Positions 39,810 to 57,153 of a DNA stretch of 64,000 bases are shown in pieces. A model generated the notes under the pieces. The model did not search any database, was not told the origin of the DNA, and saw only the letters and a program-made list of their open reading frames with translations. The position numbers and the translations under genes are program-made. Source of the stretch: Lytechinus pictus (Eukaryota); contig NC_087251.1 of NCBI RefSeq assembly GCF_037042905.1, forward strand, positions 40,116,001 through 40,180,000. The letters run 5' to 3'. The first letter of the stretch is position 1, and every line of letters starts with the position of its first letter.

Positions 39810-40378
39810 AAAATCACTCATCTTAAGCGGTTCGCGTCGCTGACGTCTAGATCTTCTCAGGGAAGCTGGGTTGGTTGCTTCTGTTTCTGAGGTATTCAAG
39901 TTTGTATTTCTTGCCAGTAACAGGATTTCTGGTTATCACCTTACACTTGCCAATAGCCTGAGTTGTAGCTTTATTCCACATAGATAGACGGATGTTTGCA
40001 CTCTGAACTACATCCTCCTCTTTTAGATACTTTTGTGGTAGAAGATTCACTGTTGCACCTGAGTCCAGCTGGAATGGTACCGTCTGATTGTTGATAAGCA
40101 TGTTACAGATAATTGGCTCTTTGTCCATATCCACTGCATTAATTTGCACAAAACTAATGCTTTCAGCTGAGGATGAGTAGTCATCATCTCCGACATGGTG
40201 AACATTCCTGGTCTTGCACACTGAAGATTGCTTGAAGTGATTAGGCTTACTGCAAGCTTTGCACTTTTGTCCCCATGCTGGACAGGACTCTTTTTTCATC
40301 TCATGAACCCTGTTACAGAACTTGCACTTCTTAACCTCTGATTTACCTTTCTGTAGATCTTTCCCCTTTGGTTTCTGC
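39810..40378 (-). mobile_element. Gypsy gag C-terminus and aspartic protease joined to the pol C-terminal tail
   Basis: CKFCNRVH...CPAWGQKCKACSKPNHF..C knuckles and FQLDSGATVNLLP protease motif; then, in another frame, LRRSRRQRREPLKMSDF*; no RT, RNase H or integrase core. Confidence 0.9.
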
Positions 40379-42003
40379 CACTCCTCATCCCGACCATTCG
40401 CCATACAGCAAAAGGTAGGGGATGGGACTAGAGGTATGTGAGGTGTAGTCATAGACAAAATTCTTAATAAAAATGTAAAAGTAAGAGAGTTTGACTTACC
40501 AGTCTTTCCCCCCGAACAAAATGTTGATCTTCCTTCCGTTGTTGCTGTAATTTATCTTGGAATCAACGATATATTGTCATTTATCGCAAGACTCTTTGAA
40601 ATATCGTTGGAATGTATCGGGAAATTTGTCATCCTCAGCAGCGCATAGACTTCTACGTAGAGGATGTAACGAGCCCTCTTGTGCTCAATTAAAGAAAGCT
40701 AACGGAAGCGACCACACCACTGACCTCTACAGAGCTGTATAAAGATGCTTCTCACCACAGATACCTGTTTCCGGTGATGCTTCTATTTCGAAGCTCCGAG
40801 ATCCAGTGATAGTAGTCTCTTTCTCCCCTGACACTCGATATTAAAAAAAAATATTTTATACACAAGAATAATTGTTGTAGCGCCATCAGCTTTGTTTATT
40901 CTGCAATGAACTGTATCTTGTCGTATGGTGAAAGGAAATATGATGCTTTTTTTTGGGGGGGGGGGTTATTGCTTCTTCTTTTGATCCCTCTCTTTTTGTT
41001 GAGTACTATCATTGTAAGGGTTATTAATATTATTTTGGTTTTTCTATTACTTTTCATATTGTTGTTGAATATTCATTTTCATCATCATATCCCTTTTGTA
41101 AGCCCCCATTTTGTACTGCCCTGGAATTAGTATGGGTGAAGGGTGAAATATAAAAAGAATGAAAAGGGGCAAGGAACTCAAGTGATAAAACAGAACATAA
41201 TTACGTTCCAATTTTTTTTTATTGAGTTTCTTTTATTTATCCCCTTGAAAGCCATAGAACAGATTTGTTTTGCATTCATTTTATGTGATAATTTGTAAAA
41301 AAATTTAATTTCATTTGATTGAAATAAATAAAATTATCTTGAAACTTCCCCGCCTTCCCCCTTGAAAATTTGTATCTGCCCCTAAATAGGCCTTTGTGGT
41401 AAGAGATTTTTTATTTTATTTATTTTTTGATGAAAATCCTTTAGGTTTGGAGTTTAAATCAATGAAACAAACTTGAAAATTCATACTGTAAAGCGAGGAT
41501 TGATTGTCTTGATTGAGGCTATTGTGACTTCCTTACCAGAATGCATTAAAAGCAAGTCTGTTCGTCGAAACCTCAGAGGTCAGTGGTCCAAACGGGTTGA
41601 TAAGCATCTATGGTTTCGTGAGATCTTTATTCTTTTTTGATTTGTCACTGTCAAACACCATAGACGTAATGGAGGCAGCTGGATGAGGTTCACGTAGAGA
41701 AATCGGTGAATTTTTATTCATTTTTTATATCATATTGATGACTTAAATCACTATTCCGTCAAAATAACAATTTAGAGAGTAAAAAGGCCCTAAGCTTTCG
41801 ATCCTAGCAGAATATTCGTCGGAGGCAAAATGACAAACATATAAAGTGGAACAATTTGAATAAAGACATCAGTCCAAGTTTGCATTGATTCGCGATGCTT
41901 TGGACAAGGGATGGGGGGAAATGAGCAATGTATATTTTAACTATTGCACGGTATAGTGCCGAGAACGAGGTTAAATATTATAACCTCGTTCGTAGGATGA
42001 GTG
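40379..42003. mobile_element. Non-autonomous DNA-transposon-like insertion splitting gag
   Basis: TGGTTTCTGC repeated at 40369-40378 and 42002-42011; ends CACTCCTCATCC / GGATGAGTG; removing it rejoins gag. Confidence 0.7.
41788..41826 (-). ncRNA. Minimal type I hammerhead-ribozyme-like motif (Penelope-like terminal repeat fragment)
   Basis: Minus strand GCCT CCGACGA ATATTC-TGCTA-GGATC GAAAGCTT AGGG; the core reads CCGA instead of CUGA. Confidence 0.45.
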
Positions 42004-42546
42004 GTTTCTGCATGCTATTTTTTTCTTCCAGACTTTGGGAAATGTTTCTGTCCAACCTTATGTATGTCTTCATTCTTTTGACTCAGAGCTTTCACTTGGA
42101 CAGATGTAGCCTCTACAGCTTTAGACACGTCTATAGCAGTTGTGAGGTCAAGGTCAGATCTCGAAATGAGAAGTTCTCTCATACGATCATCACGCACACC
42201 GAGTAGGACACGATCAACAAGCAGCTTGTCTTTCATACAGTCACAGAATCCACACGTTTTGCTCATCATACCAAGAACCGTGGCATACTGCTCAATGGAT
42301 TCATCAATCTCTTGATTTCGCTGGTTGAATTTAAATCTCTCAAAGAATTCCCTGCTCTCCCCAAGGAAATGTGTGTTAAACTTTCATAATCACAGAACAT
42401 TTGATGCTATCAGCCCAGTGGCAAATTTCATGCCATTGTAGACGCGAAGACATTAGGGTCCAACACTGTGAAGGAGAAGGGCAGTCTGATAACTATCAGA
42501 ATGTTGAGAGAGATTTGTTAGAATAGAGTAATTTTCCCATTGCTGG
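42004..42546 (-). mobile_element. Gypsy gag N-terminal part, decayed
   Basis: QQWENYSILTNL...TALLLHSVGP, ERFKFNQRNQEIDESIEQY, CGFCDCMKDKLLVDRVLLGVRDDRMRELLI..DLDLTTAID. Confidence 0.85.
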
Positions 42547-45841: not shown

Positions 45842-47134
45842 GTCAATGTGCCTCCTTTATAATGAAATAAGCTGCAGCAATGAATATCTTATGCACTAAA
45901 TCAGTCGTTAATCCATTTTTTTCATTCTTGGTAGACAAAAAAAAAGAAAGCGAATTTCATGTAAAAGTGGGGATGTGATATCATCAAGTTGCTCATTGAA
46001 TATTCATGAAGACATGCCTACAACTGTTGAACCAGTCATAGTATTCTCAGCCCGGAGCATCCCTTTAATTTATAGAAATTAATCAACACATTTTTCATGC
46101 GATAATTTCTTCTCATACAACAGATTGATGACACTCCCGAAAATTTTCCAGCAAATGGAACTCCCACCCAGAAGCAAAAATTTCTAAAAAGCGTGACACA
46201 AGAAATCATTGGCCGTGTGTGGTCAATCCACGACCCCACTGATGTATTAAAGCAGTGTCACCTCAGCCTGTGATTGTTTCAAAAAGAGGGGGACGAGCAG
46301 AGAAGTATTGGATCTGCCCTACGTATATTGCCTCTGCAAAACGGGTAATATCATGATGTCAAAATCTTCTTTTGACAAGTATAACAAGGTGGTTCAAGAA
46401 CCATGTGTCTTGCCTGACATCGCGATCAATGAAATATGCAATATGATACTTTTACCTTATCTTCGTCATAGACACATGTGTGGTATTGGTTATTTTACCA
46501 TGTGTAAACACAATTGATGCAAAAAGTATTTAAGAAATGAGAGCAATAACAAAAACTTGACCTTTTGACCCATAGATGACCCTTGAACATGATCATGTGA
46601 CATGTGACATATACAGACATATACCCAGTCTTCTTAGGGTTAAGCGTTATTCTTGTTCTTTTTTTCTCAATTGATTAAAATCAACATTTTCAGGAGGGAT
46701 TTGACATTTAAATAAGATACTTGGGCAAGTCTGTTTACTACCCTCTTCCGCTTGGTTATATATTTTTTATTCTTCTTTACCACAGAAAAGGAAGAAGAGA
46801 TGATCATGTGTAGTAATTCATTCTGCACCCGTGGTCTCTTCTTCCATTTAAGTGAAGTGGGATTAAGTGAGGATACATTACCACCAGAAAGAAGAGATTG
46901 GTATTGCAGCGAAAGCTGAAAAAGCACCAACAGGTCCCCCTTTTGCATTTGTGCAAAACACACGAAGAACAAAGTGAGAGTGGAATGTGCCAACAAGCGA
47001 TGCCCTTATGGCCAAATATTTCATCTATCCTGCCTTGGCATTGATAAAAGGCCAGGTAAAACCCCCAAAATATATAATCTAATCTAATATATAATATAAT
47101 ATATATATATCTAACCATGGACCTACTAATCTAG

Positions 47135-47352
47135 GGGGTGTTGCAGGAAAATATTTGCAATCAATCGCAAATATTCTGTTGCAATTTTACAATTGATTGA
47201 TCAGTTTTAACTATAGCAAATCAGATTAGATTCCTTGTTTCATGGAGCAGATTAGCAATCAATCCCAAATTTGCAATAAATTGTACGGCATATGCTTGAT
47301 TTCGGGAAGGAAAATAGACATGCAATTGATCGCAAGTTTCTTGCAACGCCCC
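47135..47352. mobile_element. Short MITE
   Basis: TIR GGGGTGTTGCAGGAAA / TTTCTTGCAACGCCCC. Confidence 0.7.
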
Positions 47353-47370
47353 ATTAGTCTGTGATCTTAA

Positions 47371-48115
47371 GGCCACCACACACCTTACGACCAGACTGGT
47401 CTGCGACTGAGTGAGGGGAGATGAATCGCAAGGTAGTCATAAGCTTCGACACCGCACACCTTGCGATCCGATCTGTGACTCACGCATGCGCTTTTTGCCA
47501 CAGCAACAGAAAAAGTACGCTTACTCGTGCATGTGCGCTTTGTTTATCATAATACGCGTCGTGCAACTCGGCTTTCTGATTGGCTGGAAGTTGGATTGAG
47601 CTTGCAATCCAGTCATAAGGATTCAACATGCCAAATCTTTACGATACTTTCCTTGCTACTTGTCTCTGACCGCTCTGCGACTCTCAAGCTGACAAGAGCT
47701 GTGACGTAAGGTGTGCGGTGGCACACCGACTGGTCTACGACTGCCTTGCGACTGCGTGAGGGGAGATGTGACATCACAGCTCTTGTCAGATTGAGAGTCG
47801 CAGACCGGTCAGAGACAAGTCGCAAGGAAAATATCGTGAAGAGTTGACATGTTGAATCCTTATGACTGGATTGCAAGCTCAATCCAACTTCCAGCCAATC
47901 AAAAAGCAGAGTTACACGACGCGTATATGATCAACAAAGTGCCTACGCAGTAGTAAGCGCATTTTCTCAGTTGTTATGGCAAAAAGCAAAAAGCGCATGC
48001 GTGAGTCGCAGACAGCGTGGTAGTCGGATCGCAAGGTGTGCGGTGTCGAGGGTTATGACTACCTTGCTATTCATCTCCCCTCACTCAGTCGCAAGCCAGT
48101 GGCAGTGCGGTGGCA
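47371..48115. mobile_element. Long palindromic MITE in an intron of the DUF6589-like gene
   Basis: TTAA on both sides; ~47400-47700 is the reverse complement of ~47775-48092. Confidence 0.8.
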
Positions 48116-49712
48116 TTAACGGATCGACATTTTGCTAAGTTGTTAAATTATCGATAGTCAGCACAATCTGTGGTATTAAATACTACATGATTGGGCAATT
48201 AAAGTCATTTATAGAATACATCAATACTTGTGTGAAAGGGTACTGGTTTGACAGCACAATTTAACAGACTATATAGGGACCCACTTGAAAACCTCTGAAG
48301 TAAATGAACACAAAAATCTGCATAATCACAGTGAAATCACTTTTGAAAAAGAAAAATTAAATCTTAAATTACACGCACAACCACCATATAGAGAGGGTTG
48401 AACATGTGCATTAGCTAATGGTTACTGAGTGATGTAAGGAATGTAAGGCTTGCTAGCACAGACCTAGAAAACAAACAATTGCAAAATAATTCTACCTATT
48501 GAAGTCTTTGAATGTCAATTTAAAGCATTAAAATCTCCAAATGTTATCAACTACGGATAAAAGAGATCAAAACCATTTAAAATTGACTTTTCGTTCATAT
48601 AAAACGTAAATCTCATCTTTCACCAAGATCAGTGATACAAACGCATTCCAATTCTATTAAAAGATAAAAACAAAGTGTGATACAAACTCTTCATCCATTA
48701 CTACACTTGATCAAGCAAGCATGCATTTGTCCTAAATGTGTCTGATATTATTGTATTTAAATATTCATGTATTTACAAACCTATAAATCTCTAGGAGAAG
48801 GTTGGAAATGTCCAGTCTGTGAACATCAAACTGACGAATCACGAGAAGATGGGATGTATCAGTATGCTATTGCAGTCATTTGGGAGGGTCTCATGGATGC
48901 GGTGAGAAGGTCTGCAGTAAGGGAAAACAATGGTGAATTCATCATTAGTTTCTGGCGGCTGGACATGTTTCAGTTCTTCAAGAACCAACACAGCACTATC
49001 TCAAGATTGGACACCGTTTGCTTGCAAGTAAGTAACGCCTAAATAATGAACGATGTGCGAGAAGAGCCAATGGATTTACCGCAGCGAGGTCCGCAGGACC
49101 GAGTGCGCTCCCTCCATTTTGCGAGTCAGGCACAGAGTTCATTATTTAGGTACTCTATGCACAAGAATGCATGGATTGTTTGTATTATACACCCCCCCAT
49201 GTTTTTGAGTTGCCCTGTATGCTATATTTGTCTAAATTCCAGATAATTCCTGACCTCGAGTGCAGGATAGTGCATTTTGGATGCAAGAGCGCAATTCACT
49301 GAATATCATGTGATCCGTTTTGGACCAATCAGATTGCACAACATTCTTGGAGTTGTATAATACACTATTCCATCATTGGCGTCAAGGAATAACAATTTTT
49401 CTTCAGTGGGCGTTTCATTTTTAACATCACAAAATCTGGGTCACATGATGCTTTTTAAACCAATCAGCATACATGATTTAATTTATGTAGGATATAATGA
49501 AAAGCATACTGTAACACTAAATAATTATTTATATTTTATCATATCAAGGCATACAGGGGTGGATGCCCAGAAGAATAGCACATGATCTCCAATGGAATCG
49601 TACAGTTAACCTCAAGGGGGGAAGAGGAAAATGCATACCCATGGATCGCTGCAATGAGTTTTTCAATTGTAGCACCAAAGGTAAATATACATATGGAGTG
49701 CAATACGACTTA

Positions 49713-49872
49713 TACCTTGGTCACATTTGCTTTACGGCGGCAGTACGGCGAGTCGAAAACAGCCTTTTAACATTTTTTTGTACCAACTACATATAGGTGG
49801 TTTGAATTGAAATTAATAAAACAACTGTTCGACTCGCCGTACAGCTGCCGTAGAGCAAATGTGACCAAGGTA
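49713..49872. mobile_element. TA-flanked palindromic MITE
   Basis: TIR TACCTTGGTCACATTTGCT / AGCAAATGTGACCAAGGTA; a relative lies at ~55866-56033. Confidence 0.8.
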
Positions 49873-52800
49873 TAAGAGGCATAGATGTGTTGGTTTCTGT
49901 GGGCTAGTATAAATCAACTTAATCAAGTTCAGGGAAGTGGCTGGCAATGAAAATGGAACAAAGTACCATCCCCGGTCCCCACAAGCAGAAGCACACTTGA
50001 TTATGCCTAAAATATTGCTTAATCTCTATTTCTTCTTGGGTTGTTTCGCCGCCAGATATTTGGTATATGTGGTATTATATCCTGATGGTGTCATCCCCTC
50101 ATTATTTAATTTTATTTTATAAAATATGGAATATTCTATAATTTTCTTCACATTGTAGAAAGAAATGATTAATTCCTCCCAGGACATGTGGAATTAGCAT
50201 TGTTAAATACTATGCTATTCAGCCAAATGGGTCCTTATTGTCAAATCTAAAAAAAAAAAAAATATTGTATAATCAAAATAATACAAAAGAAATAGTGGGT
50301 GACAGACATCATCGCTTGTCTCATTGGCATGTCACTGAGTTGTGCATATCACATGTTTTAAGAAAAATTAGAGAAACTTCAAAATGTCATAACTTCCTTA
50401 TTTTACACCCGATTTTTATGAAATTTTCAGCGTTGTGCTAGTCTGATTTTTCTCTATTTATCCAAATCAATATTTTTCTTGGGTGGACTTGACCATTGTA
50501 GCAAATTATTGAAACTGGTTGTGTCGAATTGGTTTCAACTGGCTTTAATTATAGGGAAATGACAACAGCCACCTGTAGTTCCAATTACGAACAAATTAAA
50601 GCTACCACGTACTAGCAGAGTAGTTTCAGTTAGAACTTCAGTAAAATCAGTTGGCAAGTTGTTTCAATTGGTTTTGTTCCAATTAGTTTCAACTGTGTTC
50701 AACAATTATGTGCACCTTGCCACAAATTACTTTCTGCCCTTCTGCCAACTGCTCATCGAACAAAATAACAGTTAACACAGGCTTTTATATAATTGTTATA
50801 AACTCTTACCTTTTTAACAGACGTGCTTAGAAAGAGCAGAAAGCTTACGACGAAAAATATGCAGAGAGCGTCGGATCTAGGGGGTCCCCTTGGACGAGAC
50901 CTCTGCAACACCTCAGCAGGGGCACAGCGAAGCAGCAATGCAACAGGAAAGTCTTCTACATGTGTGATAAAGAGAGAGCTCATTATCAACTTTACCGAGC
51001 TCTTCCACGGGAAAGAATTCTTTGCCATCAAAGGAAAAAGGCATCATCCTTCCTTCAAAGGTTTCCAGAGTCTTCCCACATCTGTAACTGAAGAAAGGAA
51101 AGGGGCATTGAAGAGCGCCTTATTGTGTTTCAGCGCCAAATTGGATTGGAAGAGACCTGCGATAAATCATTCAGACGACACGGACATGGACTTGCCCAGC
51201 GTATCTGGATTTGTAGCCCATCACGATATTACTTATGAGTCAAATGACACTAACATCAGGACCGAGTCTTCGACATCGGATTCTGCGACATCGGATTCTG
51301 ATTAAGAACGAAGGCCAAGTAGCTGGCGTCAGTCAGTATAGGCAGGTCCTCATTAAAAGTGCTATTCATGACTATTTTTTGCATATGTTGGGGCCGATAA
51401 CTGCTACTGCTAGTGTCATAACTAGTATACCGTACCCAGCTGTTGTTGTGTGTTCAGACAGGTTGTGAGTCCGGACGATCAGTTTTAGAAAGTCATTTGG
51501 AAAAATGTGCAAGCGAAGGTTCATTTTAGTACAAAATATTATGAAATAATTCCCGCTTTACTTACTGAAAGCCTGGTATATTTGTACATCATTTTATCTA
51601 ACATCAAATGGATCTCAGAATACCACCCGTTTTCTGAAATAATGACGTCAGAATATTGGTATAGCGAAAAATATATTGAGGTCTGACGTCACACATCATA
51701 GTTGATATTCGGTCACATGATACTATTTGAACCAATCACTATATACAGGATTCAAAAGACAAATATTCTTTTAACAAAATCGATGGTCGGACAGTGCTCT
51801 GCGGCCGCTTTTCACCAAAATTGCAGCTCATTGTAGCAGATCAATGCGACCGGAACGGCGTAACAAAAAATATGCGAAGCTTTGGAGCGGATTACTTTCT
51901 TCTTTTTTCTCGATAAGAAGAAAAATGCTATGCTTTGGAGCGGCTTTCTTTGTTCTTTTTCTCAATAAGACAAAAATGCTATGCCTTGGAACGGAAATTT
52001 GAGTGTAAAAATGGGGGTCCCCTCCGCGGCACATACCCACTATGCATTATATACTGAGTGCCCCCCCCCCCCCCGAGATATTTCCCGGGGATATTTCGTA
52101 CACTTATAATAATACAAGGGACATTATTCAATGAAAGATTTTGTGAAATTAAAAGAAATTCATTTTAAATCTTAACTTAAATCGTTAGGTGCGCAGACTT
52201 GGGGACCACCATACCAGCATACATTCTTTCTACCTCCTTTACCTCCATGAATACAGTCAACATCCCACGTCCACTAGTAACACATTGACACACCGACCAT
52301 AGTTTTTGTGTGTTTGCATGATAAATCGAGTGCGTAGCTTTAGGACCCCGATCGGGTAGCGAAAATGAGCGGTGTTCAGAAAACACGGCGGGATTTTCGT
52401 ATTAGTGAGTTTTGTGATATTTTCTTCTTGGTTAATGATCTTTGGAATGTTTGCCACGAATTAGTGAAAGATAATTTGTTCAAATATTAAAATAAGTTTT
52501 TATCGTTTGTAAACAAAGTGCGTATAGCTTTCGGTCCCCCATCAAATTCACTTTGCACACGATTCGGGTATTTTGATGAGAAAGGCTGCATCAGGGGGAA
52601 GAAGGATACATCCGAGAAATTAAGGTCACACTATCATATAAAATAAGAGTGGAGTTTGGTTCTACCGGCCATGCAATATGGTTGATATGATGAAGTTCCA
52701 TCTGCGTGCTCATTATTTTCGTTATTATGTCAAGATCTAAAGCAAAATGTTCGTTGTTGCACTTAGTACTTAGTTAATATTTCATGCAGCAGATACAGTG

Positions 52801-55369
52801 ACAGTTCATTGACTTTAGCCCAGTTTGTTACTTACAAAAAGGAAAGAAATCTCCAATTATTCTGAATGTGGATATGGATCTTAGTATGTGTAATAAATCA
52901 TTAGCAAAGAGAATAAATGAGATAACCTGAGATGAATTCAAGTATATTAGAAAAGCTACAGGCAAAGTGACCCTGTTGGAGATTATTCAAGGAAAAAAAT
53001 CCATCAAGTTCTAGCGGAATGATAGCTTTACCTGATACTGTAATTTTATTAGCTTAAAAGTATTCATGATCTATCAAGTCCATAGTTCTAAACGCTTTTG
53101 AGAAGTCAAGGAAAGAAAATGATCTACACTAGATCTATGCCCTAAATTATTTTGTTTCATCGCACACCATACTGGCTTCGTCACTTTTGGTTTAGTGACC
53201 CATTTTTGCTTTCCATGCATGCGGGCATTTTAAAGGTCATTTCGAATGATTGAATTTTTCTACATATTTTTATACTATCATATGTGTATTTTTTTTCGTG
53301 AAAAATCATTTGTATTTGATGTATATCCTATATTACGAAACAATAATTTTTCAGATTGATAGACCTTGATGTCGATTTTTAATACGTGTGGGAGAACACG
53401 TTTATACTCTTATTTTTTATACTTCCCTAGATGAATACGGCCATTGAGAGAATTTTAGCAAAAATGTGTCAACTTAGTCATCAAAATTGTCTTTGGAGTT
53501 ATATAGGCCCTTATTCTGAAGTCTTGTTTAAATGAGACCATGGTTTAACTCTGTGCTAGAATTGTGAAAAACGAACATTGTCTATTTTGTAGGTTTTCGA
53601 TGTTTACCATGCGCTTTCCCCTCTCCTTGTATAAAAAAGAGGACTACATTCTCTAGGTTCTTTAGCCTTCTATGCTAGAACAGTTTTGGAGACTTTTAGA
53701 GGTCACCATTAATAGTTAAAACACAACTTTATACCATAGTTTTTGCAAACTTTAGAATACGGGTCATAAACGCCTGACCAGTCAACAGAACTGAACTCTT
53801 CTCCGAGGCATCCAATGCTTTTATCAGTAAAGTTGCGGATTATGAATTTATTTTACAGTTTTGCGTGTGATTGCACTGTTGGGAAAATGGGTAAAAATAA
53901 GAAAAGGGTCGGATATTATCTTCGCAATAATAAAAGTTCGTAAACACCTAGATTCTTTATTTAAGTTATCTGTTTGTATTAAAAGTGCAATAAAAAGCAC
54001 TACACTTCTTAATTTACACTTTTTAAATCGTTTTCATTTGATTTGTTTACAAATGATTGAGTAAAAGGAAGGGGGATGAATACGAGGAAAGAGCAATGGA
54101 AAGAGATGTATTATAAGAGAAATAATAAGAACTTTAAATGGCAAGTTCATCCATAAAAAGACAATTTTAATAAAAATAAACAAATTCTCACCATTCCTTT
54201 CTATTTTTTAATATAAAATATGAAATATTCCAACTTTTCCTCATTGTCATGTCAAACGAATCTTTAATCCCCCTGAACATCTGGAATTATACCACTGTTT
54301 TAGCATTCTATGAATCAGTCACACTTGAAAAAGAGGATAGAACATCGTCAAATATTTCACCTTCAAATCACCCAGGATATGTTTTGGAATATACCATGAA
54401 GGTACGTGTCAACCTTGTTTTTAATATATGCAGTGGCATAACTACGGGGGCACGTCCCCCTCCCCCCGCCCATCTGCTGGCCAAAAAGAAAGAGAAAAAG
54501 AGGGACAAAGAGAAACTAATGTACTGGAAGAAGAAATTGGTGAATATTATCATTTTATATCATATTACAGCATAATTGTCATAGCTTTTTGATTCGTGGT
54601 AACATCTAAAACGGGTTCTCCTTAGGTGAAAGGAGCACTAAGTACACGTTTGTGAGGGGGGATACGCTCGCGTAAAAAGGGCACCTTTTCAGTGCTTCAA
54701 AAAGTGTGTGTGGGGGGGACTGTGTCCGCGGCCTCCCCAGAATCGCCACCCCTGCTTTTCGTTAATTCAGACTAAAAGATATGACAAACCGAAGTATATG
54801 AACAATCTGAAAAACGAATATCCAGTCAGCCCCCACCCACCCATCTACATATATATTTTTTTAAATGAATGAAAAATGGGTTGCTTTATCATTTCCATTT
54901 GTTCGTCGTCTATAACGGCAGATGAATGATGTTGAAGACAGATACGGTGATTACATTTTATCATACACTAACCTTGTTTTCTTGTCACTAAGCGTCAGCT
55001 TTAAGTCTTATAGAGCCAAAATAAAATACTGTTCAATCAGGAGTGCAGGTTTCCACCATCCAAATACGTCCAACTTCACTGCAGAATACGGAAAGACAAC
55101 TAGACTGCATCTCATCTCCTCTCATCCTACAGCTACAAAGGACATGCGAGATTCGGGGATTCTGTGAAGGGTCAACAAAGAGAAAGAGCAATGAAGAGAT
55201 TTATCAGGTATAATTATAGCTCCTGTGTAATTACAAGTAACCCTCCACTGCTCTACATCACAAGATCAATTCTTATTTATTTATATAATGTAAAGAAAAT
55301 ATTGATTGATTTGATAACAATAATGATGATAAAAATAGTAATAAGGAGAATGCTAAGAATGCACATTTT

Positions 55370-57153
55370 AATTTGTGATACTGTCCTGTAGTACTTCCCT
55401 GTGATACTGGTCTGCGGAATTCCTGTAGTACTGTCCTGTCATACTATCATGTGATACTATCCTGTGATACTGTCCTGTAGTACTAGTAGTAGTGTGGTAG
55501 TGGTTGTAGCGGTTGTGGTGATCGTGTCCTGTCATACTTCCTGCCATACTTATGCGGTTATTACCACAGGAAGTATCACAGGACACGGACCTGTTGTACT
55601 CCTGTTGTACAGTTCTGTAGTACCGTCCCAAATTACGTGCACGTAATTCCTGCAGTACTTTCCTGCGATACTTCCTGCAGTACATATCACAGAGTACTAC
55701 AGAAATTTTTTGTAAGGGCCCCTACCCCACCCCCGGACAATTCCACTCCCCCACCCTGGACAATTACCCCCCCCCCCCCCGACAACTACACTGTAGTCTG
55801 TACCCCTATCCAAAAATCTACACCTAACCTAACCTAACCCTGTTTCGGGGGTAATTGCCCTGTGGTAGGATACATTCGCCGGCTGGTGGCCTTACGGCGA
55901 GTCAAAATTAGCCGTTTTAATCATCCTTGTACCAGCTACTACCAGCTACACATGGGTGGTTTGTACAGGAATACCTAAAACTGCTGATTTTGTCTCGCCG
56001 TAAGGCAACCGGTCAGCGAATGTGACCAAGGTATTAATAATACTTGCTTATTGTTGTGTTAGAGGGAAGGATTCTGGGTCGAATCTAGCTTTCTTTATGT
56101 GATCTCAAAATGGCAGCAATGTATGAATAGTGAAAGTAATTCATGTGGCATCTCAATGTTGGTGGATATAAATCTTTGTACATGTATTATCCTAAAGATG
56201 AAATGTTACTGCATTATTCTAGCAGTCATTTATAATATCAAAGATGTTCTATACTGTGCATAGTACAACTCATACATAATAAAGGTATGTGAATATGCTT
56301 TTAACGTCTTTGCAAATTTGTGTTTTTTTTTCACCCCTCTTTATTAGTCAAGATGTCAAAGTTGTTGTGCTGGATCACAGGAAATTCTTACAAACTACTA
56401 CGCCTAACAAACCAGTGCAGGACGGTGTCGTGAGAAAATCGCACAGACTACTACAGGACAATACCATAGGATTGTCACAGGAAATCAACAAGAATACCCC
56501 TGCAGGATTACCACAGTAAAGTATCACAAGAAGGCTGCAGGATGAGACCAATAATGCCACACAAGATATCAAAGAACAGTATCACATGAATACCACAGGA
56601 CAGTACTGCGGTAAGGTCTCTTGGTATTCCTGCAGTACTGTCCTGTAGTACTGTTCTGTAGTACTTTCCTGTGATACTGGTCTGCGGAATTCCTATAGTA
56701 CTGTCCTGTCATACTGTCCTGTGATACTATCTATCACCACAGGATAGTATCACAGGACAGTACTACAGGAATACCAGACCAGTATCACAGGACAGTACTA
56801 CAGGAATACCAGACCAGTATCACAGGACAGTACTACAGGACACAGTACCAGAAGCCTGCGGTATTCCTGTTGTACTGTCATGTGATACTGGTCTGGTATT
56901 CCTGTAGTACTGTCCTGCGATACTGTCCTGTAGTACTTCCCTGTGATACTGGTCTGCGGAATTCCTGTAGTACTGTCCTGTCATACTATCATGTGATACT
57001 ATCCTGTGATACTGTCTTGTAGTACTAGTAGTAGTGTGGTCGTGGTTGTAGCGGTTGTGGTGATCGTGTCCTGTCATACTTCCTGCCATACTTATACTTA
57101 TCTACACCTAACCTAACCTAACCCTGTTTCGGGGGTAATTGCCCTGTGGTAGG
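55370..57153. repeat. Rearranged array of GTACTGTCCTGT-type repeats with local duplication
   Basis: ~55374-55552 is nearly identical to ~56916-57094, and ~55818-55868 is repeated at ~57101-57153; inverted blocks lie between. Confidence 0.7.

What the first reader, a model, noticed from the sequence alone, without database searches (positions are those of the whole stretch)
46124..51305. Hidden five-exon DUF6589/AcademHP-like transposase carrying two tandem ING-type PHD fingers
Seen: five GT-AG exons that splice into one protein after correcting two single-base frameshifts and one TGA. PHD1 spans exons 1-2 (YCLC..MIMCSNSFC..FFHL..WYC). PHD2 spans exons 2-3 (FCIC..VECANKRC..FHLSC..WKCPVC). They are followed directly by D..YQYA..GL..AVRE.NG..W..H.Y, WNRTVN..G..G..IPMD..NE..N and a C-terminal R.HPSF. 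Established (from memory): these motifs typify DUF6589 proteins, and animal AcademHP DNA transposons carry a PHD finger within the transposase alongside a RecQ-type helicase gene. ING-type PHDs read H3K4me3. Inference: a decayed, intron-containing transposase with a duplicated chromatin-reader insert, which could steer integration toward active promoters. The N-terminal exons and the helicase are not visible here.
Basis: partly seen in the sequence, partly recalled or inferred. Interest (0 to 1): 0.72.

Follow-up and report, generated by a model that had tools for sequence, protein, structure and literature searches.

The report
Dead Academ transposase fragment, twin PHDs
This is the broken back half of a sea-urchin cut-and-paste jumping-gene enzyme that carries two PHD zinc fingers, a design shared with relatives in molluscs, acorn worms and starfish; here both fingers lack the key tryptophan of the methyl-histone pocket, so they likely do not steer insertion to promoters in the way first proposed.

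Summary
In detail: five GT-AG exons, two frameshifts (one is a net +4, not single-base), one TGA where sister copies have Cys, and two PHD fingers inside a DUF6589 (Academ) transposase. This copy is dead. No 5' exons, helicase or termini were found in 174 kb around it.

The family was once functional (dN/dS 0.14 against a sister copy). Its nearest paralogue lies in a 36-kb element with TAG-type inverted ends and an 8-bp target duplication. Twin fingers are common in this lineage (25 of 33 database relatives).

The promoter-targeting idea is not supported for this subfamily. Both fingers lack the cage tryptophan, and PHD1 has Glu for one zinc Cys. CpG-rich insertion flanks occur equally in a family whose ends match a PHD-less Academ element.

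Strict AcademH membership is not shown: the target duplication is 8 bp, not 9-10, and there is no helicase in the nearest bounded copy. The scan already reported this family elsewhere in this genome (e1-8148343). Verdict: ordinary transposon debris of a known kind, with small family-level oddities.

The parts
46124..46344 (+). First surviving exon: end of the insertion-domain helix, linker, first two Cys of PHD1
   Evidence: 82-87% DNA identity to three fragments on C4
46247..46251 (+). Frameshift 1, net +4 bases against two sister copies
46326..46919 (+). PHD1 (spans intron 1): cage positions Tyr/Met/Phe (Trp lost); zinc ligand 6 is Glu; ligand 8 codon is the TGA
46786..47055 (+). Exon 2: rest of PHD1 and most of PHD2
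46917..46919 (+). Premature TGA; Cys codon in sister copies
46941..48820 (+). PHD2 (spans intron 2): full C4HC3 ligands; cage positions Phe/Arg/Ile (no Met, no Trp)
47133..47346 (.). Interspersed repeat inserted in intron 2 (many copies at 92-95% identity)
47365..48105 (.). Palindromic MITE inserted in intron 2; 2,327 genome matches to its terminal motif
48795..49027 (+). Exon 3: end of PHD2, return to the DUF6589 helical core
48992..48996 (+). Frameshift 2, one base short against the C3 paralogue
49549..49680 (+). Exon 4: WNRTVN motif and the inferred catalytic Glu (49656-49658)
   Evidence: role inferred from the fold of a relative
50082..50497 (.). Interspersed repeat in intron 4
50821..51305 (+). 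Last exon with R.HPSF motif, acidic tail and stop; 73% DNA identity to fragments on C8

Best explanation
This is a dead, 5'-truncated remnant of an Academ-superfamily cut-and-paste transposase gene whose insertion domain carries two PHD fingers, and in this sea-urchin subfamily the fingers likely served as a methylation-blind chromatin or structural module rather than as H3K4me3 readers. Shown: the gene structure, the lesions, the loss of the 5' half, the family of copies, past purifying selection on the finger exons, and the loss of the cage Trp. Predicted from a relative: a DDE/RNase H core with a large helical insertion, as in P, hAT and RAG transposases, with the fingers plugged into that insertion. 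Sister helicase-bearing Academ elements in this genome carry a C2H2 finger at the same spot. Inferred: the active parent bound TAG...CTA inverted ends, cut itself out and inserted with an 8-bp stagger, and also moved hundreds of short non-autonomous copies. Its preference for CpG-rich sites is likely a general Academ trait and not set by the fingers.
For: The read-through scores 310 bits against a DUF6589-protein profile. The copy is sister to the C3 paralogue (support 99-100) inside a PHD-bearing clade (96) that is sister to helicase/C2H2 AcademH elements, apart from the long single-ORF elements. The C3 paralogue keeps the first Asp exon (one frameshift), the second Asp and the EFHK motif, and lies between 32-34-bp inverted repeats with an exact 8-bp duplication. 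That terminal motif has 697 genome matches against 2 for the control. An exact 8-bp duplication was seen in 14 of 22 end pairs, and none had 9 or 10. The model of relative P0278 (pLDDT 80.7) matches P-element transposase (Z 9.7, rmsd 5.2, 285 aligned), retroviral integrases, Hermes (Z 8.4) and ING PHDs. dN/dS is 0.14 over 140 codons against a C4 copy. No 5' exons or helicase were found in 174 kb. CpG density in flanks 10-500 bp was 3.9 and 3.4 per 100 nt for the linked family, 3.2 for the PHD-less-type family (p 0.16 between them), 2.3 for a TTAA MITE and 1.9 for background.
Against: The termini belong to a paralogue about 45-52% identical in protein, not to this copy, and the link between those termini and the transposase rests on one locus. 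That element is itself internally deleted. Four longer elements with the same ends held no transposase trace. Phe in place of Trp could keep weak methyl-lysine binding in PHD1. No binding was tested.
Confidence: 0.8

Rival explanations
1. The same dead Academ remnant, but its twin PHD fingers did read H3K4me3 and steered insertion to promoters.
For: The nearest solved structures are ING PHDs. PHD1 keeps the Tyr and Met cage positions. 30 of 32 twin-finger database relatives keep Met plus Trp in at least one finger. Flanks of the linked MITE family are about twice as CpG-rich as background, repeated in a second set of 20 sites. In the 100-500 bp bin alone that family slightly exceeds the PHD-less-type family (p 0.047, one of four bins, uncorrected).
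Against: Trp, the main cage residue in ING2 (PMC4225485, passages), is Phe in PHD1 and Ile in PHD2 here, and is also absent in the C3, C4 and C16 copies of the subfamily. The CpG bias is shared by the family whose ends match a PHD-less element.
Confidence: 0.12
2. A domesticated or host gene whose lesions are assembly errors.
For: dN/dS is 0.14. Splice sites are intact. Some more distant twin- and single-PHD genes in this genome have long open frames with altered catalytic Asp motifs.
Against: There are three independent lesions, one of them a net +4. The first 400 or so profile positions are missing in 106 kb upstream. The closest copies are scattered or tandemly amplified fragments. Low dN/dS between copies is expected for a transposon family that diverged while active.
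Confidence: 0.04
3. The 8-bp termini around the C3 paralogue belong to an unrelated (for example hAT-type) element that captured an Academ fragment, so the parent of this copy was an ordinary AcademH(P) with 9-10-bp duplications and a helicase.
For: 8-bp duplications are typical of hAT (recalled). The C3 element has no helicase and begins 640 bp before the first Asp exon. Helicase fragments face the twin-PHD genes at two C16 loci.
Against: The termini share their first six bases with the bona fide AcademH element on C10. An exact duplication flanks the whole 35,868 bp. No other transposase was seen in 69 ORFs of four longer copies.
Confidence: 0.3

Closest known systems
AcademH lineage of the Academ superfamily, PHD-bearing sublineage AcademHP (Kojima 2020, Mob DNA 11:15; paper not held; the name AcademHP and its PHD trait are recalled; TSD and helicase traits are from a passage of PMC10045372)
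   Same: DUF6589 transposase with introns, PHD inside the transposase, TAG...CTA termini in the nearest paralogue, tree position sister to helicase-bearing elements, and helicase fragments facing two twin-PHD relatives.
   Different: Two fingers rather than one (whether that paper describes two could not be checked); 8-bp rather than 9-10-bp duplication in the nearest bounded paralogue; no helicase found for this copy or that paralogue; non-canonical fingers.
AcademX (helicase-less, nuclease-fused; 3-4-bp TSD per PMC10045372, passage)
   Same: DUF6589 core.
   Different: The long single-ORF DUF6589 elements of this genome (taken as AcademX-like; their nuclease was not confirmed) lie on a far branch and have no PHD insert.
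ING/Yng1 PHD fingers (PDB 2g6q, 9m4s, 2jmi)
   Same: Best sequence and fold matches for the fingers.
   Different: Cage Trp lost in both fingers here; zinc ligand 6 of PHD1 is Glu.
P element, Hermes (hAT) and RAG1 transposases
   Same: Predicted DDE/RNase H core with a large helical insertion between the second Asp and the Glu (relative P0278).
   Different: 7-10% identity; in RAG the PHD is on the partner RAG2 (established knowledge), whereas here it is inside the transposase.

Membership tests
Academ superfamily | DUF6589-type transposase | tested here: met
   310 bits against a profile of 41 database relatives; relatives pass the Pfam PF20231 cut-off; single exons of this copy stay under it
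Academ superfamily | DDE/RNase H catalytic core | tested here: met
   Fold of relative P0278. This copy keeps only the Glu exon; both Asp exons are lost but are present in the C3 paralogue
Academ superfamily | Terminal inverted repeats with target duplication | tested here: inconclusive
   None found around this copy; present around the nearest paralogue
AcademH | RecQ-like helicase gene in the same element | tested here: inconclusive
   None in 174 kb around this truncated copy or inside the internally deleted C3 element; convergent fragments at two C16 twin-PHD loci
AcademH | 9- or 10-bp target site duplication (PMC10045372, passage) | tested here: not met
   Tested on the nearest paralogue and its MITEs, not on this copy: 8 bp in 14 of 22 pairs, none 9 or 10. 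The control AcademH-type family gave 9 bp in 9 of 13 pairs
AcademH | Groups with helicase-bearing elements rather than with AcademX-like ones | tested here: met
   midpoint root, SH-like and SH-aLRT support only
AcademHP (definition recalled) | PHD finger inside the transposase | tested here: met
ING-type H3K4me3 reader | Tyr/Met/Trp aromatic cage | tested here: not met
   PHD1 Tyr/Met/Phe, PHD2 Phe/Arg/Ile (cage residues from PMC4225485, passages)
ING-type H3K4me3 reader | C4HC3 zinc ligands | tested here: inconclusive
   PHD2 complete; PHD1 has Glu at ligand 6 in all subfamily copies that keep the His, in none of 150 database hits
ING-type H3K4me3 reader | Selective binding to H3K4me3 | not testable with these tools
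   Needs a peptide binding assay

The most novel reading that the evidence does not exclude
A sea-urchin branch of PHD-bearing Academ transposons has its own signature: 8-bp target duplications (a length not given for AcademH or AcademX in the passage read), possibly no helicase, and a tandem pair of rewired PHD fingers (cage Trp lost, one zinc Cys replaced by Glu) kept under purifying selection. It mobilised several hundred MITEs. Across Academ, one site in the insertion domain would be a swappable cassette (C2H2, one PHD, two PHDs, rewired PHDs) that tunes how the enzyme grips chromatin.
Probability: 0.3. Interest if true: 0.45.

Novelty: new member of a known kind. Interest (0 to 1): 0.25.

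Why it matters
This copy does nothing today. The value is in the family. It gives a natural comparison, within one genome, of Academ elements with and without PHD fingers, each with hundreds of insertions, so the question of whether transposase-borne PHD fingers direct integration can be tested with existing annotation. The first rough test here says the CpG bias does not need the fingers. It also warns that such genes are mislabelled in databases as host chromatin proteins ('YNG1-like').

Tried and rejected
Homologue search with exon 3 alone among longer proteins: 1 candidate, no hit. Sequencing runs for 46090-47130: none was listed, so the lesions and expression could not be checked against reads. 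Metagenome contigs: the alignment query had no searchable stretch, and the single-protein query gave 56 pattern matches with none confirmed. DNA searches for close copies and for this copy's ends were crowded out by MITEs, as only 40 candidates are scored per search, so the copy count is a lower bound. Inverted-repeat plus duplication scans found no ends around this copy or around the C16, C2 and C1 PHD genes. Foldseek gave no match at E 0.001 or better for the whole model. Monophyly of twin-finger proteins was supported in FastTree (95) but not in IQ-TREE with 14 rows left out, so a single origin of the duplication is not claimed. PHD counts in the tree labels are unreliable for truncated rows; the C3 paralogue is labelled 1 but has two. 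The Kojima 2020 paper is not held. Seven searches for Academ, DUF6589 and PHD terms found no paper on twin PHDs or 8-bp duplications in Academ. That is weak evidence because the key paper, its supplements and Repbase are outside the library. No complex was predicted because methylated histone tails cannot be modelled here.
Full report
Observation. The five exons are at 46124-46344, 46786-47055, 48795-49027, 49549-49680 and 50821-51305, all with GT-AG ends. Read through with X at three breaks they give 439 residues. This scores 310 bits (E 1.7e-96) against a profile made only of 41 database relatives; the best of 200 shuffles scored 0.7. The breaks are a net +4 near 46247-46251 against two C4 copies, a TGA at 46917-46919 where those copies have Cys, and one missing base near 48992-48996 against the C3 paralogue.

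State of this copy. It covers only the second half of the profile (positions 466-848 of 853). Profile searches of all six frames over G000:C7:40,056,001-40,230,000 found no 5' exons and no helicase (controls in the same run found both at other loci). No termini were found. Upstream lie repeats and LTR-retroelement debris, and the introns hold at least three later insertions. The copy is dead. Reads could not be checked.

The family. It holds at least 26 DUF6589 matches. The twin-finger exon has 29 matches. The closest are tandemly amplified fragments of exons 1-2 on C4 (77-87% DNA) and of exon 5 on C8 (69-74%). dN/dS against a C4 copy is 0.14 over 140 codons (dS 0.62), so the finger exons were under selection while the copies diverged. 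The nearest near-complete relative is on C3, with the same introns and about 52% identity in exons 2-3. It keeps the catalytic Asp exons and lies in a 35,868-bp element with 32-34-bp inverted ends and an exact 8-bp duplication. It lacks the first 200 or so profile positions and any helicase, so it is internally deleted. Its terminal motif has 341 + 356 matches in the genome against 2 for the reversed control. 14 of 22 end pairs examined show an exact 8-bp duplication, three more show 8 bp with one mismatch, and none shows 9 or 10.

Wider distribution. The finger exon finds 157 cluster representatives. The longer ones are DUF6589 proteins of Mya, Ptychodera and Acanthaster, and a shorter one is from Tegillarca. 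Of 33 relatives of a twin-finger query, 25 have two fingers, 3 have one and 5 (partial matches) have none; the query biases this count toward two. In trees built without the finger columns, this copy pairs with C3 (99-100) inside a PHD-bearing clade (96). That clade is sister to two helicase-linked elements that carry a C2H2 finger at the same site. One of those, on C10, is a complete AcademH: convergent helicase and transposase, 112-bp ends, 9-bp duplication. Helicase fragments also face two twin-finger genes on C16. This copy fills under half of the tree columns, and the root is a midpoint.

How it worked. A model of the complete relative P0278 (pLDDT 80.7) aligns best to P-element transposase (Z 9.7, rmsd 5.2, 285 residues), retroviral integrases (Z up to 9.4), Hermes (8.4) and RAG1-type proteins (about 5); its fingers align to ING PHDs. 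So the parent was very likely a cut-and-paste DDE enzyme with the fingers plugged into the helical insertion between the second Asp and the Glu. This is inferred from the fold and the alignment. The 8-bp stagger and the mobilisation of MITEs are inferred from one paralogue.

Do the fingers read H3K4me3? In ING2 the cage is built on W238 with a Tyr and M226 (PMC4225485, passages). Here PHD1 has Tyr, Met and Phe, with Glu in place of the sixth zinc ligand. PHD2 has Phe, Arg and Ile. These changes are shared by the C3, C4 and C16 copies of the subfamily, so they are not decay. The Glu variant occurs in none of 150 database hits, and 30 of 32 twin-finger database proteins keep Met plus Trp in at least one finger (35 examined, 9 of them picked by me as twin-finger). 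The lineage as a whole may well read H3K4me3, but this subfamily likely does not.

Insertion test. CpG per 100 nt in flanks 10-500 bp out was 3.9 (30 flanks) and 3.4 (20 further flanks) for the C3-linked family. It was 3.2 for 28 flanks of a family whose ends differ by one base from the PHD-less C10 element (9-bp duplications in 9 of 13 pairs), 2.3 for 30 flanks of a TTAA MITE, and 1.9 for background. Both Academ-type families exceed background (p below 1e-5). They do not differ from each other (p 0.16); one of four bins gave p 0.047. Limits: both flanks of one insertion were often counted, sites are the first listed ones on a few contigs, background is my fetched transposon-rich DNA, CpG is only a proxy for promoters, and the enzyme that moved each MITE family is inferred.

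Comparison with what is known. PMC10045372 (passage) gives 9-10-bp duplications and a helicase for AcademH, and 3-4 bp and a nuclease for AcademX. PMC10799480, PMC12210899 and PMC9004415 (passages) add nothing on PHDs in Academ. The primary paper is not held, so AcademHP and its PHD are recalled, and its text or supplements may already describe two fingers or 8 bp. I file this under the Academ superfamily, PHD-bearing branch. It works like AcademH(P), but strict AcademH membership is not shown.

Verdict. Real, correctly read and dead: a new member of a known kind. The 8-bp duplication and the rewired fingers are modest family-level leads. Interest 0.25.

Noticed in passing
G000:C10:32259752-32276882 (L077-L079): A complete 17.1-kb AcademH element: 112-bp identical inverted ends, 9-bp duplication, convergent RecQ-like helicase and C2H2-bearing DUF6589 transposase; its terminal motif has 1,080 genome matches.
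   Followed up: partly
G000:C16:9.36-9.38 Mb and 9.46-9.50 Mb (L048-L050, L036-L039): Two inverted twin-PHD DUF6589 genes with an altered second catalytic motif group with a starfish protein (P0116, support 98, long branches) and face helicase fragments; possible old domestication or an old dead family.
   Followed up: partly
G000:C2:52.97-52.99 Mb and 53.04-53.05 Mb (L022-L023, L082, L084): An inverted pair of single-PHD DUF6589 genes with long open last exons, altered catalytic Asp motifs and no termini or helicase found; candidate domesticated genes.
   Followed up: partly
G000:C4:22.37-22.41 Mb (L052-L055) and G000:C10:13.05-13.07 Mb (L025-L026): Single transposase exons amplified as tandem arrays (758-bp and about 1,958-bp periods); the C4 region also repeats a canonical PHD exon beside integrase-core frames.
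   Followed up: no
window 39847-40551 and 42015-42383, minus strand: LTR-retroelement-like gag and aspartic-protease fragments (weak Pfam hits).
   Followed up: no
window 51781-52075: A young repeat of about 294 bp with at least 39 copies at 97-98% identity just downstream of the gene.
   Followed up: no
L149:3685-4086: A weak C8-domain hit (E 0.0015) inside a 4.9-kb element with the 8-bp-type termini; possibly a captured host exon.
   Followed up: no
window 55352-57095: Arrays of a 13-bp unit in both orientations, resembling foldback-element arms.
   Followed up: no
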